This document shows, one piece after another, positions 1 to 23,836 of a stretch of DNA of 24,000 bases. The stretch's first letter is position 1, and each line of letters starts with the position of its first letter. The translations under genes and the position numbers were made by a program. The notes beneath the pieces were generated by a model. It saw only the letters and a program-made list of their open reading frames with translations. It was not told the DNA's origin and did not search any database. This DNA comes from Clostridium arbusti SL206 (lineage in GTDB: Bacteria > Bacillota > Clostridia > Clostridiales > Clostridiaceae), in NCBI RefSeq assembly GCF_000246895.1, contig NZ_BAEV01000033.1, positions 2,849 through 26,848 of the forward strand. The letters run 5' to 3'.

Positions 1-1061
1 TGTGCAAATCAATCAAGTGCATTTTTAACCGCTGTTAATCCACCCTTTGCAAGTCCTAAAAGTTGATTACTTAAATTAGATCCACTGCTACCCATCTTAG
101 GGAATAAATTAGTAGCTATTTGTATAACATCTTTTATAATTCCTGAAATTATAGGTGATAATGTAGTTATTGCCTGGCTTATAAATTTCATCCCATTGCT
201 AATAATATCTTTAGAGCCATTTATTGCATTTTTTATAGCATCTTGTATCTTTGGCATGTTGCCATTAAACCAAGTAACCGCACTATTAAAAGCTGGTAAT
301 AATAATGTACCAACACTTTGCCCTAATGTAGCAAGATTCAATTGTGCAACTCTAATCTGATTCGCAAAACTTCCACTTAATGTTCTGCCAAAATCCCCTT
401 GAGCATCTTTTGTAACGTTCATAAGATAATTATATCTTAATATAGTTTGTTCTGATTGACTCATTTGAGCATATGGCTTTTTAATACCTTCAGATAATGC
501 ATAAGCTTGTAAATTAGCTACGGACATGTTAATACCAAGTGCTTTTAATGGCTCCGTTTCTCCAGATATACCAGATCTGATTTTTTCCCACATATCAGAA
601 GTACCTACATTATAAAAAGAACTCATGTCTCCTGTTAGTTGTACAAGTTTCTTGGACATATCCCCAGCTTTTTGTTCAGTAACTCCACTAGATTTAAGCA
701 TAGCACCCATGAATCCAACTCATTGTGTACTAGCTGTTTGAGATATACCAGCACTTTTAGCTGTTGTTTGTGTCCAATCTTCAATAGATTTTGCACTATT
801 CTTATATGTCTGTTGGACTACATTCTGTGCTTCCGATAAATTGCTAGCACTTTCAGCCAGTTTATATCCCTGATCTATTAAGGCTTTAAAGCCAAAACCC
901 ACACCTAATACAGCGCCTAATTTAAGAGCAAGACTCCCTATTTTCCCAAAAGAGCTTTCAAATATTCCTGATAGCCCTTTTGCTTTTTCTCCTGCTTTAT
1001 CAAGTTCTGTACTTGCATTATCTTTTAGTAATAATTCTCCAAATATACTAAATAATTTCAT
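1..1061 (-). CDS. tail tape measure protein (partial, runs off the left edge), read with TGA=Trp
   Basis: Track ORFs 720..1061 and 9..710 share a frame and are separated only by TGA at 720-722 (..TASTQ-W-VGFMGAMLK..). ORF 9..710 also ends in TGA (9-11) and stays open to base 1. ATG at 1061 follows a GGGGGTG RBS. The gene lies directly downstream of the chaperone pair and has TMP-like sequence (ALGINMSVANLQAYALSEG..). Confidence 0.8.
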
Positions 1062-1064
1062 TCG

Positions 1065-1412
1065 TTAATCACCCCCTTTTTGATTATTTCTATTTAAGTT
1101 ATCTAATTTTCGTATTCTTTCCGCTTCTGCTAATGCTTCTTCTTTTGTTATTTTTTTAGAACTTTTTGTATCTGTATTTGTATTTTTAAATGCTTTATTT
1201 TTATAATCTTCAAAACTCATATAATTATTTTTATCCATATAAATATGCTCTATATTCCATTGTTCAAAGAGTCTATCTTCAGCGATCTTTATATTCATCT
1301 TTTCAATTAGTTTAAATCCATCAAAAAATCTTAAATTAATTACATAATCAATATTATTGTATCTACTTAAAATTGTATCCATGCACTCATATTCATCAAA
1401 ATCTTCAGGCAC
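1065..1412 (-). CDS. tail assembly chaperone frameshift extension (gpT-like, likely made as a G-T fusion)
   Basis: This ORF is in the -1 frame relative to 1433..1777. The -1 frame is open with no stop from the slippery site at 1460-1466 through the GTG at 1412. It ends in TAA 3 nt before the TMP ATG. Confidence 0.65.
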   Translation of the reverse strand: MPEDFDEYECMDTILSRYNNIDYVINLRFFDGFKLIEKMNIKIAEDRLFEQWNIEHIYMDKNNYMSFEDYKNKAFKNTNTDTKSSKKITKEEALAEAERIRKLDNLNRNNQKGGD

Positions 1413-1432
1413 TATACTATGTGCAAATTGAA

Positions 1433-1777
1433 TTATTTTGCAGAGTTCAGTGCCTGTCCGAAAAAATCAGAAAATTGGTCATCATTAAATATTGAATTTA
1501 CTATCTCCATAACATCTTTTAATTCCATGTTTTCTACTTCACCTATAGACTGGCTACTTATATCTGCAAATAATTTATATATTTCTTGTTGTGCATCTCC
1601 TAAATGTTCTACAAATAACATTGTTAATTCTACTTGTAGATTTTGCTGTGCTTCTTCTTTTTCTTTAGGAGTTTTGTTTGATATATCTGTTATTAATCCT
1701 TTTATTTCTGCCTTTATATTCATTTTTTTAATAATTCTAGTTAATGTAAATAGATCTCCAAATTGTAATTTTCTCAT
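1433..1777 (-). CDS. tail assembly chaperone (gpG-like)
   Basis: 114-aa ORF between the major tail gene and the tape measure gene. It ends in TAA and carries a slippery heptamer near its 3' end. Confidence 0.7.
   Translation of the reverse strand: MRKLQFGDLFTLTRIIKKMNIKAEIKGLITDISNKTPKEKEEAQQNLQVELTMLFVEHLGDAQQEIYKLFADISSQSIGEVENMELKDVMEIVNSIFNDDQFSDFFGQALNSAK
1460..1466 (-). promoter_or_regulatory. -1 programmed ribosomal frameshift slippery heptamer U_UUU_UUC
   Basis: The minus strand reads GAT TTT TTC in the zero frame, giving X_XXY_YYZ = T_TTT_TTC. A -1 shift reads TTT TTT CGG ACA GGC ... ATA GTG CCT GAA, which joins ORF 1065..1412. Confidence 0.65.
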
Positions 1778-11003: not shown

Positions 11004-11585
11004 TTATATTCTAAAACTCTTCAATGCATCTTCATATTCATCATCAACTATATGTGTATATATCATTGTAGTAGATAAATCACTATGTCCTAATGCCTTC
11101 TGTACTAATCTTATGTTCTTTGTATCTCTTAATAAATCTGTAGCAAATGAATGTCTTAACGTGTGAGGCGATATGGTCTTTGTTATACCTGCTTTACCTG
11201 CATAATTAACAACCATTTCTCTTACATCTCTATCAACTAATTGTTTGCCAGTTCTATTTGTAAATACATGGGATACTTTACCTAATTGTTCCCCCTGTCT
11301 TTGTTTCCAGTCCTGTAATAATTGTAGGGTATTTTCTCCAAGCCATAGTATTCTATCTTTAGATCCTTTACCATCTACTACTTTTAATTGTCCAGTAAGT
11401 AAATTAATATCCTGCCATTTTAAATTAATCATTTCAGATAATCTTAATCCTACTGCAAGAAATAACTGTATCATCATCTTATTTCTATGACTATTAAAAT
11501 ATCTTACATTAAATATATTTATCAATTGTTCTTGCTCTTCTTTAGTCAAGAACTCTGGTATTTTTTTATTGCTCATAACTATCAC
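11004..11585 (-). CDS. small tyrosine recombinase (XerC/D-integrase catalytic domain only, 193 aa)
   Basis: The catalytic residue pattern is present: GLRLSE (Arg), HTLRHSFAT (H-x-x-R) and LGHSDLSTTMIYTHI (His...Tyr). The ORF has no in-frame TGA. Confidence 0.8.
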   Translation of the reverse strand: MIVMSNKKIPEFLTKEEQEQLINIFNVRYFNSHRNKMMIQLFLAVGLRLSEMINLKWQDINLLTGQLKVVDGKGSKDRILWLGENTLQLLQDWKQRQGEQLGKVSHVFTNRTGKQLVDRDVREMVVNYAGKAGITKTISPHTLRHSFATDLLRDTKNIRLVQKALGHSDLSTTMIYTHIVDDEYEDALKSFRI

Positions 11586-11609
11586 CCTTTTATAATATAT
11601 TATAGCTTT

Positions 11610-11703
11610 CCACCTATTTTATGTATTATAGGTGGTTATTCACTACAATTATTAGTATATGCCTACTTGATATAAAATTCAAGTATAATCGGTGGTTATT
11701 CAC
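11610..11703. repeat. inverted repeat plus 13-bp direct repeat upstream of the recombinase gene
   Basis: An inverted repeat, CCACCTAT (11610-11617) and ATAGGTGG (11628-11635), has a 10-nt spacer. The 13-mer GGTGGTTATTCAC occurs at 11631-11643 and again at 11691-11703, exactly 60 bp apart. Confidence 0.7.
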
Positions 11704-11727
11704 AATAAAATAAAAATATTTATGTAC

Positions 11728-12132
11728 TTACTCAACCTTCTTTAACTTATACTTTTCAAACTCATTATGAATAATTTTAGGATCTATGCTTTCATCTTTC
11801 TTATCTGATATATCCTGTGTCTTAGATGTTGGCAATCCATATATCCTATTCAATAAATAAATTAGTATATCTTTCTTTGTATTTTCTGACTTACTTGTCA
11901 ATGCTATCTTTTCTAATTCACTAATATAGATATCAACTTTCGACATTATTTTTTGTTCGCCTTGTTTTTTGAGTTGTGTCACGTACTCGTCTACTGTTGC
12001 CTTCCATTCTGGTCTTTTCATATCGTTATATATTGTCTGTCTAGCAACTCCACATAACTTAGCAATATCAGTAATTTCTGTACCTTGGGCATACAACTCT
12101 GCTTCCTTTTGTTGTCTCTCATTTAATGGCAT
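11728..12132 (-). CDS. terminase small subunit-like HTH protein (phBC6A51-type HTH)
   Basis: The N-terminus LNERQQKEAELYAQGTEITDIAKLCGVARQTIYN is an HTH. The gene is the first of the packaging block and has a GGAGGTGG RBS. Confidence 0.5.
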   Translation of the reverse strand: MPLNERQQKEAELYAQGTEITDIAKLCGVARQTIYNDMKRPEWKATVDEYVTQLKKQGEQKIMSKVDIYISELEKIALTSKSENTKKDILIYLLNRIYGLPTSKTQDISDKKDESIDPKIIHNEFEKYKLKKVE

Positions 12133-12692: not shown

Positions 12693-13166
12693 CTATAGAT
12701 CCTCCCCTATTATTTTTCCCTCTTTATTTGCTTGTAACCGTTTCTTAATGATAGTAAACATAGTTCCAAAACATATTACTACATCAATAATACCTACAAT
12801 CCAAAGTAATACTGTACTTTGCAATGTAGCTGCATCACCTATAGCTACCACAAAATATACTATTAAGCACATCTTAATTAACTTCATTACAGCTTTATTT
12901 GTTATCTCACTATTTCTCTTACGTAATAGCTTATCATTAGCCTTTATCTGATTTGTGCTATAAGAATTATTAGTACTCTTATTATTACCACCTAATTCTT
13001 TTCTAAAATAAATACCATCTTTACCACCAGCAATATAAGTCTTGCCTTTACTATTAGCACCAATCCTAGCACCCTTTACACCTGTTGAAATACCCAATCC
13101 ACTTTTACTTAAATTTAATCGTGTATGTTTTCCAAGTTTTATAGATTTTCTAAAGAATACTCCCAT
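12693..13166 (-). CDS. DUF4236-like protein with C-terminal transmembrane segments
   Basis: The N-terminus FRKSIKLGKHTRLNLSKSGLGISTGVKGARIG resembles DUF4236. The C-terminus is hydrophobic (LIVYFVVAIG...LLWIVGIIDVVICFG). Confidence 0.5.
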   Translation of the reverse strand: MGVFFRKSIKLGKHTRLNLSKSGLGISTGVKGARIGANSKGKTYIAGGKDGIYFRKELGGNNKSTNNSYSTNQIKANDKLLRKRNSEITNKAVMKLIKMCLIVYFVVAIGDAATLQSTVLLWIVGIIDVVICFGTMFTIIKKRLQANKEGKIIGEDL

Positions 13167-13239
13167 TTATAACACCTTCCTATAGGAATATTATACTACT
13201 TTAGGATTAACAAAAAAGAGTTAATTAATTATTTTCTTT

Positions 13240-13668
13240 TTATAATTCAAGTTCTTCTTTTTTATTATTATACCCATCAACAGTATTATTAAATTTATTA
13301 ACAAATTTAATTGCTTCATATTTTATTTCAATAGCTCTATCAATATTTTTTAAAATTTGATTAGCTTTATATAAAGTTACTTTATTATGATTCCATATAC
13401 ATACTTTTTCAGAATAATATTTATTATCAACAAAATCAACAATACCTATTGGAATAACATTCTCATCTTCAATTATATAATCTATATTATGTTCTTTTAA
13501 AAAACTTTCATCTAATAGATTATCAATATTAACCCAAACTGAGTCTTTTTCTTCAGTTATATTATCTGTATTTATAAAAATACTTTTATAATCATCAGTA
13601 TGATATACTACACCATAGTATTTTATAGATTTTGTAGTATAAGTTTCAAAGCTTTTTACTATTTTCAT
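13240..13668 (-). CDS. hypothetical protein
   Basis: 142-aa ORF with a GGGAGATGG RBS, ending in TAA. Confidence 0.45.
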   Translation of the reverse strand: MKIVKSFETYTTKSIKYYGVVYHTDDYKSIFINTDNITEEKDSVWVNIDNLLDESFLKEHNIDYIIEDENVIPIGIVDFVDNKYYSEKVCIWNHNKVTLYKANQILKNIDRAIEIKYEAIKFVNKFNNTVDGYNNKKEELEL

Positions 13669-13774
13669 AATCCCATCTCCCTAATATTGTATTTTTATTT
13701 ACTATTCTACAACATTAGGTTAAATTCCTTTATTTGTTTAATTATTCTTTACAGTATCACTTATTAATTTACTC

Positions 13775-13808
13775 AAAAAATAAAAAAATTCCTGATAAAC
13801 ATCAGAAA
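13775..13808 (-). terminator. rho-independent terminator downstream of structured RNA A
   Basis: The minus strand reads TTTCTGAT-GTTT-ATCAGGAA, followed by TTTTTTTATTTTTT. Confidence 0.6.
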
Positions 13809-13825
13809 CACATTTATGATATATT

Positions 13826-13924
13826 AAGATAGATTACTGAGTAGGTTGGCAACCCTACATCTCTTGAAAGACCTTATTTCTAAGGCGTGGCAGCTGCCCG
13901 TTCTGCCCTTCAATAATCTATCCT
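13826..13924 (-). ncRNA. candidate structured RNA A (unclassified; stand-alone sRNA or cis-regulatory leader)
   Basis: A 15-bp closing helix (minus-strand AGGAUAGAUUAUUGA with UCAGUAAUCUAUCUU) encloses a GC-rich 69-nt core. The core holds three hairpins: GGCAG..CUGCC, GCCUUA-GAAA-UAAGGU and GUAGG..CCUAC. Two G-U pairs in the closing helix would be A-C mismatches on the plus strand. Confidence 0.5.
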
Positions 13925-13940
13925 TACTTACTATATGTTT

Positions 13941-13969
13941 ATTATATAATTATAATGCATTTTTGTCAA
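13941..13969 (-). promoter_or_regulatory. consensus sigma-70/sigma-A promoter driving RNA A
   Basis: The minus strand reads TTGACA (13969-13964), exactly 17 nt, then TATAAT (13946-13941). Confidence 0.6.
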
Positions 13970-13986
13970 TTATTATTTACAAAATC

Positions 13987-14415
13987 TTATTTTACTTTCC
14001 ATGCAGTATTAGATTCAATATAATCTTTCAATTGTTTTTCAGTTAAAGGATATGCAGTTCTAAAGCATAACTTACCTTTATATTTAATTCTAACTGCAAC
14101 AATCATTAGTTTATCTAGCTGTTTAATATATTGGATACTATTATCTTTTGGATGCCTTCCAACATAATCAGGATTTTCTATTATATCAGGAATTAATTCT
14201 ATATGCTTAATAAAGCTTTCTTCAGATTCAAAATTTTCTTTATGTTTCTCAATATACTTAAATCTATCTTCCCATAATACTATATCACATTCATCTCTAT
14301 CAAGTTTAATTATATCTGCAATCTCTTTTGTCAACATCCCAATTTTTATATTTATAAATCCTTTTTTAAGTGATTTAACATCCAATTTATCAGCCATTTT
14401 TTTCATTCCTCTCAT
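13987..14415 (-). CDS. PBECR-family (phage Barnase-EndoU-ColicinE5/D-RelE-like) nuclease, putative
   Basis: The pattern ..FKYIEKHKENF...IELIPDIIENPDYVGRHPKDNSIQYIK...IVAVRIKYKGKLCFRTAYPL matches my recollection of this family. An extended -10 (TGCTATAAT) lies at 14438-14430. The true start is probably the third ATG (MADKL), after GAGAGGAA. Confidence 0.45.
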   Translation of the reverse strand: MRGMKKMADKLDVKSLKKGFINIKIGMLTKEIADIIKLDRDECDIVLWEDRFKYIEKHKENFESEESFIKHIELIPDIIENPDYVGRHPKDNSIQYIKQLDKLMIVAVRIKYKGKLCFRTAYPLTEKQLKDYIESNTAWKVK

Positions 14416-14498
14416 GCAATCCTTACATTATTATAGCATAAAATGTATAATGATATAATATTACACAATAAGATAGAATTATTATTTGTCGAATTATT

Positions 14499-15331
14499 TT
14501 ATTCTGTTAATCCCATTCTCTCTAGTAATAAATCTATTTCTTCCTTTTCTTGTGGTATGTCATAATTACTTATAATCAACTCACCATAATGTTTCCTACT
14601 ATCCTTTGAAGCACTATAAAATACTTCATGCTCCATAATATTAAAATCTTTAAATAGCTCTCTTATATATTCATCATTATTAATTGTATATAAAAATTTG
14701 CCTTTAGCATTTCTACAACATTCTGCTAGTAATCTATACTGTTCATCTGTAAATTTACCTACTGCATATTGCTTTGTATTTCTATAAGGACTATCAACAA
14801 AGAAAAATGTATCTGGTTTATCGTATATTCTAAATATATCCTCAAAAGATTTATTCTCTATAACTACAGTTTGTAGTCTCATATATGCTGCAGTAATATC
14901 TTCTTCTATTTTATCAATTTTTAAACCATTTCTACTTTCTGCACCCGTACCAAATATAGGATTACGCATATCACTGGCAAATCCTGCCTTAACTAAATAA
15001 TAAAATATATGTGCTCGCTGTATAGCATCCTCATATATTCCTTCTTTATATATCTGTTTATATTGATTAAATAGTTCTCTACTAACTAGAGTATAGTCAA
15101 AACTATTTATAAATTGGTCTGGAGCATTCTTTACTACACTCCAAAAATTCATTAAGTTACTATCAAAATCGTTTAAAATTTCTACTTTAGAAGACTCTTT
15201 ACCGAATAATAAATGACCTGCCCCCCAAATACTTCAACATATGTTTTATGCTCTGGAATTAATGGCAACAGCTTATGCACCATTCTTGATTTGCCTCCAA
15301 CTCAACTTAAAGGACTTTTTATTTTAGACAT
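14499..15331 (-). CDS. Dam-type (D12 class) N6-adenine DNA methyltransferase with an in-frame TGA=Trp, interrupted by a frameshift in a G6 tract
   Basis: ATG at 15331 gives MSKIKSPLS-W(TGA 15302-15304)-VGGKSRMVHKLLPLIPEHKTYVEVFGG. The frame then breaks at GGGGGG (plus C6, 15221-15226). One extra G would give ..FGGAGHLLFGKESSKVEILNDFDSNLMNFW.., joining track ORF 14499..15152. That ORF has a catalytic DSPY motif in VDSPYRN. The length of 833 nt is not a multiple of 3. Confidence 0.8.
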
Positions 15332-21397: not shown

Positions 21398-23836
21398 TTA
21401 TTTTTCAGTTTCCAATTTTTTACTATCACCTTCTTTAAATACTGATAGAAATATATCTTTATCCAATTTATACAATATATTTAATAACTCTAATTTATAC
21501 TTAAAATCAAATTTCTCTTCTAATATATCCATAATAATGCTATGTATTGTTTCTTTATTCATTATAAACTTGCTTAAATTGTCAAGATAAATAGATCGTA
21601 CTTTACTTATCTTTCTATATTTTTCCTTTTGTTCTTCTTTATCATTATTGTCTACTTTATTATTATATGTGCTCTGTATCTCCTTAAATTTATTAATCAT
21701 CTTTTTAGCAATCTCTATTATATTTTTCCTTTTTCTACTTTCAGCTTTACTGTCTATGTTATCAATGTAATTTTTAATAGGTTTAGCATGTGTAGTATCT
21801 GCTGGCTTAATTCCATTCATTATTTCTTGTAAATAATCCATTGGGCAATTGTACTTTATGAACCTAATTTTTTTATCTTTATCTTTCTTTTTACCTTTCT
21901 TTTTATTTTGACTTACATATTTAAAAAATAAAGGTTTAGATACATGTAATAGATTACTTTTGTTCAAGCTATCAATTTGCTCTTTTATATTTACATCATA
22001 CATTCTCTTAGCATTGTCTATACAAATCTCTGATAAGATGGTACATATATCAATTTTCTCTAATAACTCATTCAATCTAGTATCATTTTTATCTTTACTA
22101 TATAAATCCCAGTAAGTTGACATAAATAATTGTCCTAAATTTACTACAGTACCTATATTTTTCTGACTCTCTGCTAGTATATTATCTATTACTGCCATAT
22201 CTTTAGTACCTACAGTATAAGAATTAATGTTTTTATTTACTCCATTCTCACAAACTCTATATTGGCTCTCTGGACTTTTAATATAACATTTTCTTGCTCT
22301 AGATAATAAAGTATCATTATTTATTAATAGTAAATTATCTGAATCACAATCCTGGCCTGATAATATTCTATTTATTGGAAAATTTATAGCATTTGTGTAA
22401 ATGATGTTGTTAGTGAGATTAAAATATTTAGATATAAAATCATTATCTTTATTCTTAAGGATTAGTACGTTGCTTTGGCTTGTGTGTGGATTTCTAAATG
22501 AAACATACTCATTATTAAAAGGGTGTAGTTTTGTATAAGCTTCATTTTCCTTTAAGATCATTCTATCTTGCCATTTATCATAATCAAGGATTAACTCACC
22601 TTTTTTATTTCTATTTGTTGGTAATTGCTTCACGACATGATATAATAATTCCTTGCCATTTTGAACAATTGTTGTATAGTCCCCGGGTAATCTTATTTTC
22701 CCATGTTTTATATATTTAACATAATTATGGATATCTGATTTTCTTTTCTTTTTAAATAAGTCTGTATATATAAGTTGGTTATTATGTTTATATAGATCTA
22801 CTATCATCTCATTAGTATTGTTATCATTTACGTTTTTAAATAAATAATCTATGTACACATCATTATTATTTTTTAACTTTTGTATGTAATTTACTTCAAA
22901 TTCACTTAATTTCTTCATATCTTCTTGATCTAAAGGAATACTATTTAATTGCTGATATGACATTTGGTTTATTATATTTCCTTCTACATCATACCCTCTT
23001 TGGCTCTCATGTTCTACCTTCACGATACCGAAAATATGATCTTCATCTTCAATTTTTCTTTTCCAGTGATCCCACATCTTGGGTTTACTACCTTTTACCT
23101 TATTAAATTTTAAGGCCTTAAGGGAATTTGGTGTGGTTATCATAAGTATATCTTTAGCTAAAATTGTATCTCCAAACATATTAGTTAATTCCCATGTATC
23201 ATAATCTATATGATGTTCTGTTGCATAATCCTTTAAAAATTGCTGTATATTAGTATTAAAAACTGCACATTTAAACATATGCTGCCTTAATAGTAAGAAT
23301 CCAGTATTTTCATATTTTCCTACAAATTGACTCGAATCTAAAAGACCTTCGCCATCGAAAATATCATTTGTCATCGTATAATCATTTTGTTGCTTACTTA
23401 CTAATAATACTGGTTTCTTATCTTTTCCCTCTGTATCTAAATTTTCTTGTGTGTTTTCAGCTTCGGCAGAAATCTGCACAACCTGAGGATTATCATTCTT
23501 TTCTTTTTCCTTTTCCACTATATTACAATTAATTTTAAATACAGATTGTACATCGTCTACAAGCAAAATATTTTTAGGATCTATTTTAATAGTGCCCTCG
23601 ATACTACTGCTTACCAAGCTTTCGTAGGTCAGAAGACCTGGATAATCTATATCATTTTTACCTTCTAAAGTCATTCCTAATCTTTGCCATTTTATCATCT
23701 TATCTCTAAGTTGCTTCCTTATAAATAACACCTGGCCTGTCCGGCTCTTACTCGAGGTTCGACTATAGACTACATAATCAATTGTTTTTTTACCTATAAT
23801 AAGAGAAAAGCCTTCTGTGTACAACTTTTTTCTCAA
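21398..23836 (-). CDS. YonO / cellular-RdRP-like single-subunit (double-psi beta-barrel) RNA polymerase, putative
   Basis: 812-aa ORF. It contains VSFRNPHTSQSNVLILKN...NIIYTNAINFPINRILSGQDCDSDNLLLINND. This parallels the RdRP/QDE-1 catalytic region (..RxPxxxxxD(I/V)....(I/V)xF....LSGGDxDGDxxxVxWD). The N-terminal YSRTSSKSRTGQVLF resembles the RdRP S-S-x-x-R-x-x-x-x-F element. The frame stays open upstream to a TAA at 23981-23983 with no canonical start, so the N-terminus is uncertain. There is no in-frame TGA. Confidence 0.6.
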   Translation of the reverse strand: MRKKLYTEGFSLIIGKKTIDYVVYSRTSSKSRTGQVLFIRKQLRDKMIKWQRLGMTLEGKNDIDYPGLLTYESLVSSSIEGTIKIDPKNILLVDDVQSVFKINCNIVEKEKEKNDNPQVVQISAEAENTQENLDTEGKDKKPVLLVSKQQNDYTMTNDIFDGEGLLDSSQFVGKYENTGFLLLRQHMFKCAVFNTNIQQFLKDYATEHHIDYDTWELTNMFGDTILAKDILMITTPNSLKALKFNKVKGSKPKMWDHWKRKIEDEDHIFGIVKVEHESQRGYDVEGNIINQMSYQQLNSIPLDQEDMKKLSEFEVNYIQKLKNNNDVYIDYLFKNVNDNNTNEMIVDLYKHNNQLIYTDLFKKKRKSDIHNYVKYIKHGKIRLPGDYTTIVQNGKELLYHVVKQLPTNRNKKGELILDYDKWQDRMILKENEAYTKLHPFNNEYVSFRNPHTSQSNVLILKNKDNDFISKYFNLTNNIIYTNAINFPINRILSGQDCDSDNLLLINNDTLLSRARKCYIKSPESQYRVCENGVNKNINSYTVGTKDMAVIDNILAESQKNIGTVVNLGQLFMSTYWDLYSKDKNDTRLNELLEKIDICTILSEICIDNAKRMYDVNIKEQIDSLNKSNLLHVSKPLFFKYVSQNKKKGKKKDKDKKIRFIKYNCPMDYLQEIMNGIKPADTTHAKPIKNYIDNIDSKAESRKRKNIIEIAKKMINKFKEIQSTYNNKVDNNDKEEQKEKYRKISKVRSIYLDNLSKFIMNKETIHSIIMDILEEKFDFKYKLELLNILYKLDKDIFLSVFKEGDSKKLETEK

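What the first reader, a model, noticed from the sequence alone, without database searches (positions are those of the whole stretch)
13775..13969. Self-contained unit of consensus promoter, closed multi-helix RNA and intrinsic terminator (candidate novel sRNA or riboswitch-like leader)
A perfect TTGACA-17-TATAAT promoter (13969-13941, minus strand) is followed about 10-15 nt after the predicted start by a 99-nt element. In that element a 15-bp helix (13910-13924 with 13826-13840) closes a GC-rich core of three hairpins, one of them capped by a GAAA tetraloop.

The two non-Watson-Crick positions of the closing helix are G-U on the minus strand and A-C on the plus strand. This points to a minus-strand RNA.

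About 17 nt further on is a clean rho-independent terminator (13808-13775). The next gene (13240..13668) starts about 105 nt after that.

The architecture is that of a riboswitch or attenuator, or of an independent sRNA. I do not recognise it as any known riboswitch class or as a tRNA.
Basis: seen in the sequence. Interest (0 to 1): 0.7.

Follow-up and report, generated by a model that had tools for sequence, protein, structure and literature searches.

The report
Skipping-rope RNA beside phage RNase gene
The element is a copy of an already catalogued but functionally unexplained bacterial/phage small RNA (the "skipping-rope" RNA, Rfam RF02924), and it travels as one small cassette with a predicted ribonuclease gene, which suggests, but does not prove, that the RNA keeps that ribonuclease in check.

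Summary

It is not a new class. Rfam places 13917..13833(-) in skipping-rope RNA (RF02924) at 64.6 bits against a gathering score of 36.7. Weinberg et al. described this family in 2017 and its function is still unknown. A riboswitch or attenuator role is not supported.

What I add:
- The upstream gene (14415..13987) is a PBECR3 BECR-fold endoribonuclease.
- In 103 informative loci found through that protein, 99 carry a skipping-rope RNA just after its stop codon (typically about 45 nt). It is usually on the same strand and is convergent in 8.
- No protein partner is conserved next to the gene.
- A second phage contig shares only the 834-bp gene+RNA block (97% identity), so the pair is a mobile cassette.
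- Family-wide, the helices and a loop-loop pseudoknot covary, and near-consensus promoters are conserved.
- Found through the RNA, only 12 of 38 distinct contexts have PBECR3. Others follow complete toxin-antitoxin modules with an RNase toxin (CptIN, Panacea-PemK, Gp49/HigB-like plus HTH).

Best guess (about 0.45): an abundant RNA that binds and neutralises or buffers the adjacent RNase, in the manner of a type III antitoxin.

The parts
14430..14438 (-). Candidate extended -10 promoter (TGcTATAAT) of the PBECR3 gene. It lies inside the shared 834-bp cassette.
   Evidence: Read directly from the sequence. The cassette's left boundary is at 14499. Consensus match only; not tested.
13987..14415 (-). 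PBECR3-family (BECR-fold) predicted endoribonuclease, 142 aa as the ORF is listed. The true start is probably ATG 14398, behind the RBS AGAGGA at 14412..14407.
   Evidence: - Pfam PF18812 PBECR3 E = 1.2e-20; PF18810 PBECR2 E = 1.3e-9.
- His58, Tyr84 and Lys98 are (near-)invariant and Ser/Thr93 is conserved in about 150 homologues.
- AF2 model pLDDT 86.7. The best PDB folds are HigB, BrnT and CdiA-CT RNase toxins, but only at E = 0.06-0.3.
13941..13969 (-). Perfect sigma-70-type promoter TTGACA-17-TATAAT of the RNA gene. Predicted transcription start is near 13934.
   Evidence: -: 12/12.
- Family-wide, 64 of 148 distinct contexts score at least 11/12 upstream of the RNA, against 2 of 740 shuffles.
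13826..13924 (-). Skipping-rope RNA. The Rfam core is 13917..13833; here the closing stem P1 is extended to 15 bp. It has three inner hairpins and a loop1-loop3 pseudoknot (GGCA 13902..13899 with UGCC 13855..13852).
   Evidence: - Rfam RF02924: 64.6 bits, gathering score 36.7, E = 1.1e-13, model positions 1-80 of 80.
- Own covariance model: 78.3 bits.
- MFE and z-score.
- Covariation in 85 distinct homologues: 96% of cells paired and 22 of 26 pairs with compensatory changes. The pseudoknot pair is UA 42 / CG 33 / UG 7.
13775..13808 (-). Intrinsic terminator: 9-bp AU-rich hairpin followed by U7AU6.
   Evidence: -.
- Not called by the stricter scan.
- In the family, 58 of 146 contexts have a hairpin plus T-run 30-50 nt after the RNA, against 29 of 730 shuffles.
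13667..14499 (-). The whole PBECR3 + skipping-rope cassette (promoter, RNase gene, promoter, RNA, terminator), shared as one block with another phage contig.
   Evidence: L001 2917-3749 is 97.1% identical over 834 nt to exactly this interval. The flanks are unrelated.

Best explanation
**What it is**

13924..13826(-) is a skipping-rope small RNA (Rfam RF02924). It is transcribed from its own consensus promoter and ended by its own intrinsic terminator. Together with the PBECR3 endoribonuclease gene directly upstream, it forms an 830-bp two-part cassette in a phage genome.

**Proposed mechanism (inferred, not shown)**
- The RNA folds into a compact four-way junction locked by a loop-loop pseudoknot.
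- It is made in excess of the protein. It is transcribed from its own strong promoter. In addition, no terminator was recognised in the 17-nt gap between the gene's stop codon and the RNA promoter, so readthrough of the RNase mRNA probably also carries it.
- It binds the PBECR3 RNase directly and keeps it inactive or buffered. This is how a type III antitoxin acts on its toxin.
- The RNase is freed when RNA supply falls, for example on transcription shut-off by a superinfecting phage. The cassette would then act as an addiction or abortive-infection module.
- Skipping-rope genes without PBECR3 in other phages would then be orphan antidotes or decoys.
For: **Shown**
- Family membership.
- Strand-specific stable fold.
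- Covariation of all helices. The pseudoknot also covaries and was not part of the search model.
- Near-consensus promoters conserved across the family. Terminators are enriched about 10-fold.
- The neighbour is PBECR3, with conserved His/Tyr/Ser/Lys.
- In loci found through the protein alone, 99 of 103 informative loci (25 viral contigs, 80 genomes, the window) have the RNA. It starts at a median of about 45 nt after the stop codon and is convergent in 8.
- The same arrangement occurs in Streptococcus suis prophages: lysin, 'spbA', RNA, att.
- No protein family other than an integrase recurs next to PBECR3, and the integrase is present in only 12 loci. A protein antidote is therefore not evident.
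- Gene and RNA move together as one 834-bp block between unrelated phage backbones.
- Four loci keep an intact RNA beside a disrupted PBECR3 ORF.

**Inferred**
- BECR RNases are toxins that are normally paired with an inhibitor (Iyer et al. 2017).
- The abiF-motif RNA RCd22 neutralises its neighbouring toxin AbiF by direct binding, like a type III antitoxin (bioRxiv 10.1101/2025.04.15.648962). From my recollection, which I did not check, the abiF motif comes from the same 2017 survey as skipping-rope.
Against: - Nothing here shows that PBECR3 is toxic, that it binds the RNA, or that the RNA inhibits it.
- The RNA does not need PBECR3. When searched through the RNA, only 12 of 38 distinct viral contexts have the gene.
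- In several other contexts the RNA follows toxin-antitoxin modules that already have their own antitoxin. Examples are CptN with canonical 46-nt CptI repeats, Panacea plus PemK, and Gp49/HigB-like plus HTH. Adjacency to an RNase therefore need not mean 'antitoxin'. It could reflect a shared accessory-gene hotspot.
- Three intact PBECR3-like genes lack the RNA (L011, L046, L066).
- The layout differs from every characterised type III system, which has tandem repeats upstream of the toxin.
- The structural match of the model to RNase toxins is weak.
Confidence: 0.45

Rival explanations
1. The RNA is a substrate, cofactor or scaffold of the RNase rather than its inhibitor. PBECR3 would need the RNA to be active or targeted (an RNP effector), or would cleave it to release a signal.
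For: - The same near-obligate linkage and cassette structure.
- A highly conserved single-stranded core (AG linker, GAA..GG loop, AGAU junction), as expected for a specific protein-RNA interface.
- Weinberg et al. judged the motif to have features of a 'sophisticated biochemical function'.
Against: - The RNA has its own promoter and terminator, so it needs no processing to be released.
- It has no variable single-stranded segment that could act as a guide. Only P1 and hairpin 2 vary, and both are paired.
- Two thirds of RNA-first contexts lack PBECR3. This is hard to explain for a dedicated cofactor.
Confidence: 0.2
2. The RNA is an autonomous trans-acting phage RNA, for example a decoy against host RNases or anticodon nucleases, or a regulator. 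Its linkage to PBECR3 and other toxin genes would only reflect co-residence and co-transfer in prophage accessory ('moron') hotspots.
For: - 26 of 38 RNA-first contexts have no PBECR3. The RNA sits between tail-fibre genes, after lysins, beside integrases, and after complete toxin-antitoxin modules.
- It has its own promoter and terminator.
- The module lies at prophage ends next to att or integrase.
Against: - Hotspot co-residence does not explain why 96% of solo PBECR3-like genes keep the RNA at one fixed position, typically about 45 nt after the stop, across hosts ranging from Streptococcus to Clostridia to Veillonella.
- It also does not explain why the exchanged block ends exactly around gene plus RNA.
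Confidence: 0.25
3. One reading: a riboswitch-like leader or attenuator that controls the downstream gene 13668..13240 by terminated versus readthrough transcription.
For: - The order promoter, structured RNA, terminator, gene on one strand, with 107 nt to the next start codon.
Against: - The downstream ORF is a singleton among 106 loci.
- The 97%-identical cassette in L001 ends at that gene's start codon and is followed by unrelated sequence.
- The RNA is on the opposite strand in 8 loci.
- The RNA is closed by a 15-bp helix 17 nt upstream of the terminator, and the MFE fold shows no alternative pairing with it.
- The discoverers found the family only rarely in 5' UTRs.
Confidence: 0.03

Closest known systems
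Skipping-rope RNA motif (Rfam RF02924; Weinberg et al. 2017, NAR 45:10811, PMC5737381)
   Same: - Full-length match, 64.6 bits against a gathering score of 36.7.
- Closing stem plus three hairpins.
- Conserved AG, GAA..GG, AGAUG and GCC nucleotides.
- 3' intrinsic terminator.
- Phage and Firmicutes setting.
- Linkage to one protein family encoded nearby, in either orientation.
   Different: - Nothing essential differs. This copy has an unusually long P1 (15 bp) and a GAAA-capped, extended hairpin 2.
- The published main text gives no function ('no specific hypothesis'). It names the linked protein only in a supplement that I could not read.
Type III toxin-antitoxin systems (ToxIN, CptIN, TenpIN)
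   Same: - An endoribonuclease gene next to a non-coding RNA gene.
- Phage, prophage or defence setting.
- No recognised terminator between the two genes, and the RNA has its own strong promoter.
- A real CptIN module lies directly upstream of a skipping-rope RNA in L130.
   Different: - Known antitoxins are tandem 34-46-nt repeats upstream of the toxin, cut out by the toxin. Here there is one 80-100-nt four-way-junction RNA downstream, with its own promoter, sometimes on the other strand.
- The toxin fold is BECR, not the ToxN/MazF-like fold.
- Neutralisation is untested.
AbiF-RCd22 of a Clostridioides difficile prophage (bioRxiv 10.1101/2025.04.15.648962)
   Same: [quoted passage not shown]
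- By my unchecked recollection the abiF motif was found in the same 2017 survey.
- It is the best experimental precedent for the logic proposed here.
   Different: - A different RNA motif (abiF) and a different protein family (Abi_2/AbiD/F, HEPN-like).
- Nothing experimental exists for skipping-rope.
Colicin D/E5 with their immunity proteins; RelE/HigB toxins (BECR-fold RNases)
   Same: - PBECR3 belongs to the colicin-like group of BECR RNases.
- From general knowledge, these enzymes are always kept with a tightly linked inhibitor, and ImmD and ImmE5 mimic the tRNA substrate.
   Different: - Those inhibitors are proteins. Here no conserved protein partner exists, and the linked partner is an RNA with a cloverleaf-like topology.
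tRNA / tRNA-like structures
   Same: - Four-way junction with 2-nt, 1-nt and 4-nt linkers.
- Hairpin 3 is contiguous with the closing stem.
- Loop 1 (AA..GG) pairs with loop 3 (..CC), reminiscent of the D-loop/T-loop contacts.
   Different: - ARAGORN finds none, and the Rfam tRNA model gives nothing at E <= 10.
- There is no anticodon loop (hairpin 2 is a variable tetraloop hairpin with a bulge) and no CCA end.
- It carries a 5' leader and a 3' terminator.

Membership tests
Skipping-rope RNA (RF02924) | Covariance-model score at or above the curated gathering score, over the full model | tested here: met
   64.6 bits against 36.7, model positions 1-80 of 80, E = 1.1e-13.
Skipping-rope RNA (RF02924) | Closing stem enclosing three hairpins with the conserved junction and loop nucleotides | tested here: met
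   - MFE fold.
- Alignment to the consensus.
- Conserved columns in 22 and in 85 homologues.
- Covariation: 96% of cells paired, 0 of 500 shuffles reach the observed values.
Skipping-rope RNA (RF02924) | Loop1-loop3 tertiary pairing. That the family description includes a pseudoknot is my recollection only. | tested here: met
   - Window: GGCA pairs with UGCC.
- Family: 3 pairs, 98.4% paired. The third pair switches between U-A (42) and C-G (33). These pairs were not part of the search model.
Skipping-rope RNA (RF02924) | Rho-independent terminator at the 3' end | tested here: met
   - 9-bp hairpin plus U7AU6 at 13808..13775.
- It is weak in G-C, so the strict scan misses it.
Skipping-rope RNA (RF02924) | Association with one protein family encoded nearby, in either orientation | tested here: met
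   - A PBECR3 gene ends 69 nt upstream.
- 99 of 103 protein-first loci have the RNA; 8 are convergent.
- Whether this is the same domain named in the 2017 supplement could not be checked.
Riboswitch / transcription attenuator | Located in the 5' UTR of a conserved downstream gene or operon | tested here: not met
   - The downstream ORF is unique to the window.
- The cassette boundary falls at its start codon.
- Opposite-strand cases exist.
Riboswitch / transcription attenuator | Terminator stem competes with an alternative (antiterminator) pairing in the aptamer | tested here: not met
   The aptamer-like domain is closed by a 15-bp helix 17 nt upstream of the terminator. MFE and centroid structures are identical, with no overlap.
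Riboswitch / transcription attenuator | Ligand binding | not testable with these tools
   This would need in-line probing.
tRNA / tRNA-like | Recognised by tRNA detectors or covariance models | tested here: not met
   ARAGORN finds 0 genes. There is no RF00005 match at E <= 10.
tRNA / tRNA-like | Cloverleaf four-way junction with D-loop/T-loop-type contact | tested here: inconclusive
   The topology and the loop-loop pairs are present. However, hairpin 2 has no anticodon loop, and the 3D shape is not modelled.
Type III toxin-antitoxin system | Toxin is a protein endoribonuclease | tested here: inconclusive
   - Predicted only: Pfam PBECR3 E = 1.2e-20 and conserved His/Ser-Thr/Lys/Tyr.
- Fold matches to RNase toxins are weak.
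- No activity data exist.
Type III toxin-antitoxin system | Antitoxin is an array of short tandem RNA repeats upstream of the toxin, separated from it by a terminator | tested here: not met
   It is a single structured RNA downstream of the gene with its own promoter. Tandem copies occur only in L003, and L065 has a weak second match 0.9 kb away.
Type III toxin-antitoxin system | RNA binds and neutralises the toxin protein | not testable with these tools
   This needs co-expression and rescue, plus binding assays.

The most novel reading that the evidence does not exclude
Skipping-rope RNA is a tRNA-shaped RNA antidote for BECR-fold (colicin-like) ribonucleases. PBECR3 plus skipping-rope would then be a new kind of protein-RNA toxin-antitoxin / abortive-infection cassette. 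In it, a single pseudoknotted four-way-junction RNA mimics the enzyme's tRNA-like substrate, doing with RNA what ImmD and ImmE5 do with protein. The many orphan skipping-rope genes in phages would be counter-defence decoys against such RNases.
Probability: 0.25. Interest if true: 0.8.

Novelty: new member of a known kind. Interest (0 to 1): 0.45.

Why it matters
The RNA class itself has been known since 2017, so the window adds only another member. Its function has stayed open for nine years, however. The discoverers singled it out as structurally sophisticated and offered no hypothesis.

The main text I could read does not name the linked protein, and I found no later paper that gives the RNA a function. 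These data identify that protein as a predicted BECR endoribonuclease. They also show three things:
- The linkage is near-obligate from the protein's side.
- Gene and RNA are exchanged as one 830-bp cassette.
- The RNA recurs behind other RNase-toxin modules.

Together these turn 'unknown RNA' into a two-plasmid toxicity-and-rescue experiment. If the RNA proves to be an antidote, it would be a new architecture of RNA antitoxin and a new phage defence or counter-defence pair.

Tried and rejected
- **DNA similarity to GenBank phages.** A megablast of 6 kb around the locus found nothing. A sensitive blastn of the 206-nt unit hit only AT-rich promoter-like stretches and no homologous RNA.
- **tblastn of the window's PBECR3 against GenBank phages.** No hit. 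A more common family member as query found six Streptococcus prophages.
- **RNAalifold on a MAFFT alignment.** It recovered only hairpins 1 and 3. I therefore imposed the full structure by hand, built a covariance model and re-aligned.
- **tRNA hypothesis.** ARAGORN and a permissive Rfam scan were both negative. I kept it only as a resemblance in topology.
- **Iterated HMM search.** I looked for diverged PBECR3 genes in the 76 RNA-first loci that lacked one. There was no gain over four rounds, so these are true absences within the stretches held.
- **Catalytic residues in RNA-less genes.** I tested whether RNA-less PBECR3 genes had lost catalytic residues. This was not clearly so: L011 and L046 keep His/Tyr/Ser-Thr/Lys, and L066 is ambiguous in the alignment.
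- **'Sole antitoxin of any adjacent RNase'.** Weakened. The CptN neighbour has its own CptI repeats, and the PemK and Gp49 neighbours have protein antitoxins.
- **Supplement of the 2017 paper.** It names the associated protein domain but is not held.

Full report
**1.

On the minus strand the window has a 12/12 TTGACA-17-TATAAT promoter at 13969..13941. It is the only perfect site in 13000..14600.

Folding 13935..13770(-) gives -47.2 kcal/mol, z = -4.46, and none of 200 shuffles fold as well. The plus strand gives z = -2.1.

Its two wobble pairs are G-U only on the minus strand. Inside it lie three conserved hairpins, the middle one capped by GAAA.

Seventeen nucleotides further on is a 9-bp AU-rich hairpin followed by U7AU6 (about 13808..13775). 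The tool's strict terminator scan requires at least 3 G-C pairs and does not call it. My looser scan does.

**2. What it is**

Rfam's curated models place 13917..13833(-) in skipping-rope RNA, RF02924. The score is 64.6 bits against a gathering score of 36.7, with E = 1.1e-13 over the full model. No other family and no tRNA is present in the window. The element is therefore not a new class.

Weinberg et al. 2017 (PMC5737381) described the family. They reported:
- It is highly conserved and is followed by Rho-independent terminators.
- It is rarely found in 5' UTRs, so it is an improbable riboswitch.
- It did not self-cleave in their tests.

For the related DUF3800-associated motifs they wrote that no specific hypothesis was obvious to them, and they offered no function for skipping-rope either. 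The supplement that names the protein is not held. The only later mentions I found do not concern function.

**3. The neighbour**

The ORF ending 69 nt upstream of the Rfam core (14415..13987) is a PBECR3 domain protein: PF18812 at E = 1.2e-20 and PBECR2 at E = 1.3e-9. [quoted passage not shown]

Iyer et al. [quoted passage not shown] A 2026 preprint groups PBECR3 with colicin D and CdiA-CT-EC869.

In about 150 homologues:
- His58 is present in 130 of 133 aligned sequences.
- Tyr84 and Lys98 are invariant.
- Ser/Thr93 is conserved.

An AF2 model is confident (pLDDT 86.7). Its best PDB matches are HigB, BrnT and CdiA-CT RNase toxins, but only at E = 0.06-0.3, so the assignment rests on the Pfam profile.

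The gene has its own candidate extended -10 (TGcTATAAT, 14438..14430). It probably starts at ATG 14398, behind the RBS AGAGGA. The gap between its stop codon and the RNA promoter is only 17 nt, and I recognised no terminator in it. Its mRNA should therefore read into the RNA.

**4. Protein-first test**

I collected 105 loci that encode relatives of this protein (25-99% identity) from viral contigs and from one-genome-per-species bacterial contigs. The hosts are mostly Clostridia, Lachnospiraceae, Oscillospiraceae, streptococci, Gemella, Veillonella and bacilli.

- Rfam found a skipping-rope RNA directly after the gene in 19 of the first 20 loci scanned.
- My own covariance model, built from 22 of these RNAs, found one in 99 of the 106 sources.
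- Of the seven sources without an RNA, three are cut by the contig end. One is a gene fragment (L041). Three are intact genes followed only by a terminator (L011, L046, L066).
- The informative total is therefore 99 of 103.
- The RNA starts at a median of about 45 nt after the stop codon (most within 16-255 nt). It is on the same strand in 91 loci and convergent in 8.
- Four loci keep a high-scoring RNA beside a PBECR3 ORF broken by stop codons.
- No other protein family recurs next to the gene apart from a tyrosine integrase in 12 loci. The window's downstream ORF is a singleton.
- Six annotated Streptococcus prophages have a homologue, labelled 'spbA protein' in five of them. In the two I examined the order is lysin, spbA, then a skipping-rope RNA 19 nt after the stop, then att.

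**5. The pair is one mobile unit**

Contig L001 shares a single 834-nt block at 97.1% identity with the window. The block is window 14499..13667. It runs from the stop of the preceding methylase gene to the start codon of the following gene. It therefore holds exactly promoter, PBECR3, promoter, RNA and terminator. The flanks are unrelated.

**6. RNA structure across the family**

On 85 distinct sequences aligned to the model:
- 96.1% of cells form standard pairs, against 72% in shuffles and 30-52% when partners are slid.
- 22 of 26 pairs show compensatory changes.
- 0 of 500 shuffles reach any observed measure.

The nested helices were fitted by the model, which favours them. The loop1-loop3 pseudoknot was not in the model, yet it is 98.4% paired and its third pair switches between U-A (42), C-G (33) and U-G (7).

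Near-consensus promoters lie upstream of the RNA in 64 of 148 distinct contexts (at least 11/12, and 34 are perfect), against 2 of 740 shuffles. Terminator-like hairpins with T-runs follow in 58 of 146 contexts, against 29 of 730 shuffles. The RNA is thus a strongly and independently transcribed small RNA throughout the family.

The topology recalls a cloverleaf:
- an 8-bp or longer stem, then a 2-nt AG linker;
- a hairpin with an AA..GG loop, then a 1-nt purine linker;
- a second hairpin, then a 4-nt AGAU linker;
- a third hairpin that stacks on the closing stem, with loop 1 pairing to loop 3.

However, tRNA detectors reject it. This is a resemblance, not membership.

**7. RNA-first test**

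A 23-base degenerate pattern from the family found 117 stretches in viral contigs.
- The 100 loci I scanned with the model all carry a true skipping-rope RNA (51-79 bits).
- Only 40 of the 116 new loci (12 of 38 distinct contexts) have a PBECR3-like gene.

The other contexts vary: between tail-fibre-like genes, after an endolysin, and near portal, scaffold or integrase genes. Several follow other RNase-toxin modules:
- a CptN homologue (PDB 4rmo, E = 3.8e-22), with the RNA 40 nt after its stop;
- a PemK/MazF-like toxin, with the RNA 5 nt after its stop;
- a Gp49/HigB-like toxin plus an HTH antitoxin;
- SocA/Panacea-domain proteins.

Importantly, the CptN gene has its own canonical CptI repeats (46 nt, two copies). 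The PemK gene is preceded by a Panacea antitoxin. Those toxins therefore already have antidotes.

**8. Interpretation**

*Shown:* this is a skipping-rope small RNA gene. It forms a discrete cassette with a predicted RNase gene, and that gene family almost never occurs without the RNA.

*Inferred:* the dependence is asymmetric. The protein needs the RNA, but the RNA does not need the protein. Added to this are the lack of any conserved protein partner, the strong constitutive RNA promoter with likely co-transcription from the RNase gene, RNA retention beside decayed RNase genes, and the RNase-toxin neighbourhood. All of this fits an RNA that binds and neutralises or buffers the RNase, in the manner of a type III antitoxin.

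The abiF-motif RNA RCd22 gives an experimental precedent. It neutralises AbiF in a C. difficile prophage by direct binding.

Three points count against the inference:
- No biochemical data exist.
- The layout differs from that of known type III systems.
- The RNA also follows toxin-antitoxin modules that are already complete. This could mean a broader decoy or buffer role, or simply a shared accessory hotspot.

I put the antidote reading at about 0.45, an autonomous RNA with positional linkage at about 0.25, a cofactor or substrate role at about 0.2, and the riboswitch/attenuator reading at about 0.03.

**9. Verdict**

The class is already known and its function is unknown. The useful new lead is the PBECR3-skipping-rope cassette, which makes the function of this RNA directly testable.

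Noticed in passing
L003:3421-3499 and L003:3528-3607; L065:3288-3368 and L065:4113-4202: One PBECR3-like gene in L003 is followed by two tandem skipping-rope RNAs 29 nt apart. They are of different sequence subtypes (loop 1 GGUUC with loop 3 ACC, versus GGCAG with GCC). L065 has a weak second match (26 bits) 0.9 kb downstream.
   Followed up: partly
L130:1623-1714 (repeats), about 1113-1577(-) (cptN), 996-1073(-) (RNA): A canonical CptIN type III toxin-antitoxin module lies directly upstream of a skipping-rope RNA. It has two 46-nt CptI repeats, a terminator-like hairpin and a CptN homologue of PDB 4rmo. The RNA starts 40 nt after the cptN stop.
   Followed up: yes
L133:2629-2735(-) and L133:6429-6507(-): The same viral contig carries a DUF3800-I RNA (RF02969, 99.6 bits) 3.7 kb from a skipping-rope RNA. 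The latter sits 5 nt after a PemK-like toxin gene that is preceded by a Panacea-domain antitoxin. Weinberg et al. treated the two motifs as possibly related.
   Followed up: partly
L002:3795-3876, L031:1342-1505, L038:2751-2831: tRNA genes lie within 0.2-1.7 kb of the PBECR3 + skipping-rope module in three loci. L002's skipping-rope copy is divergent: 33.8 bits with my model, and not reported by the Rfam gathering-threshold scan. This may be chance, since phages often carry tRNAs.
   Followed up: no
window 14398..14415: The listed ORF starts at ATG 14415. However, the RBS AGAGGA (14412..14407) and the homologues' N-termini (MA.KLD) point to ATG 14398 as the real start, giving 136 aa.
   Followed up: partly
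window 11004..12132: A short tyrosine-recombinase ORF sits immediately downstream of a small-terminase-like HTH protein (phrog_2538) on the same strand. It is 193 aa and matches only the catalytic domain of Phage_integrase. This is an unusual place and size for an integrase, so it is possibly truncated or a Xer-like resolvase.
   Followed up: no
window 14499..15152: The Dam-type N6-adenine methyltransferase ORF matches only positions 55-252 of the Pfam profile, so its N-terminus appears to be missing. Its stop codon coincides with the left boundary of the mobile PBECR3-RNA cassette.
   Followed up: no
window 21398..23836: An 812-aa ORF matches a PHROG family of unknown function almost end to end (phrog_8308, E about 1e-215). 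It has no Pfam domain.
   Followed up: no
L222 (KX077891.1 42735-43112) and L223 (KX077890.1 433-846): In five of the six matching Streptococcus prophage records the PBECR3-like gene is annotated 'spbA protein'. In the two I examined it is the last gene before the att site, after the lysin, and the skipping-rope RNA there is not annotated. I found no paper on 'spbA' in the library.
   Followed up: partly
L066:4980-5064: A ZMP/ZTP riboswitch (57 bits) lies 1.7 kb downstream of one of the rare PBECR3-like genes that lack a skipping-rope RNA. The gene right after the PBECR3 gene looks like a host permease, so this copy may be a chromosomal remnant.
   Followed up: no
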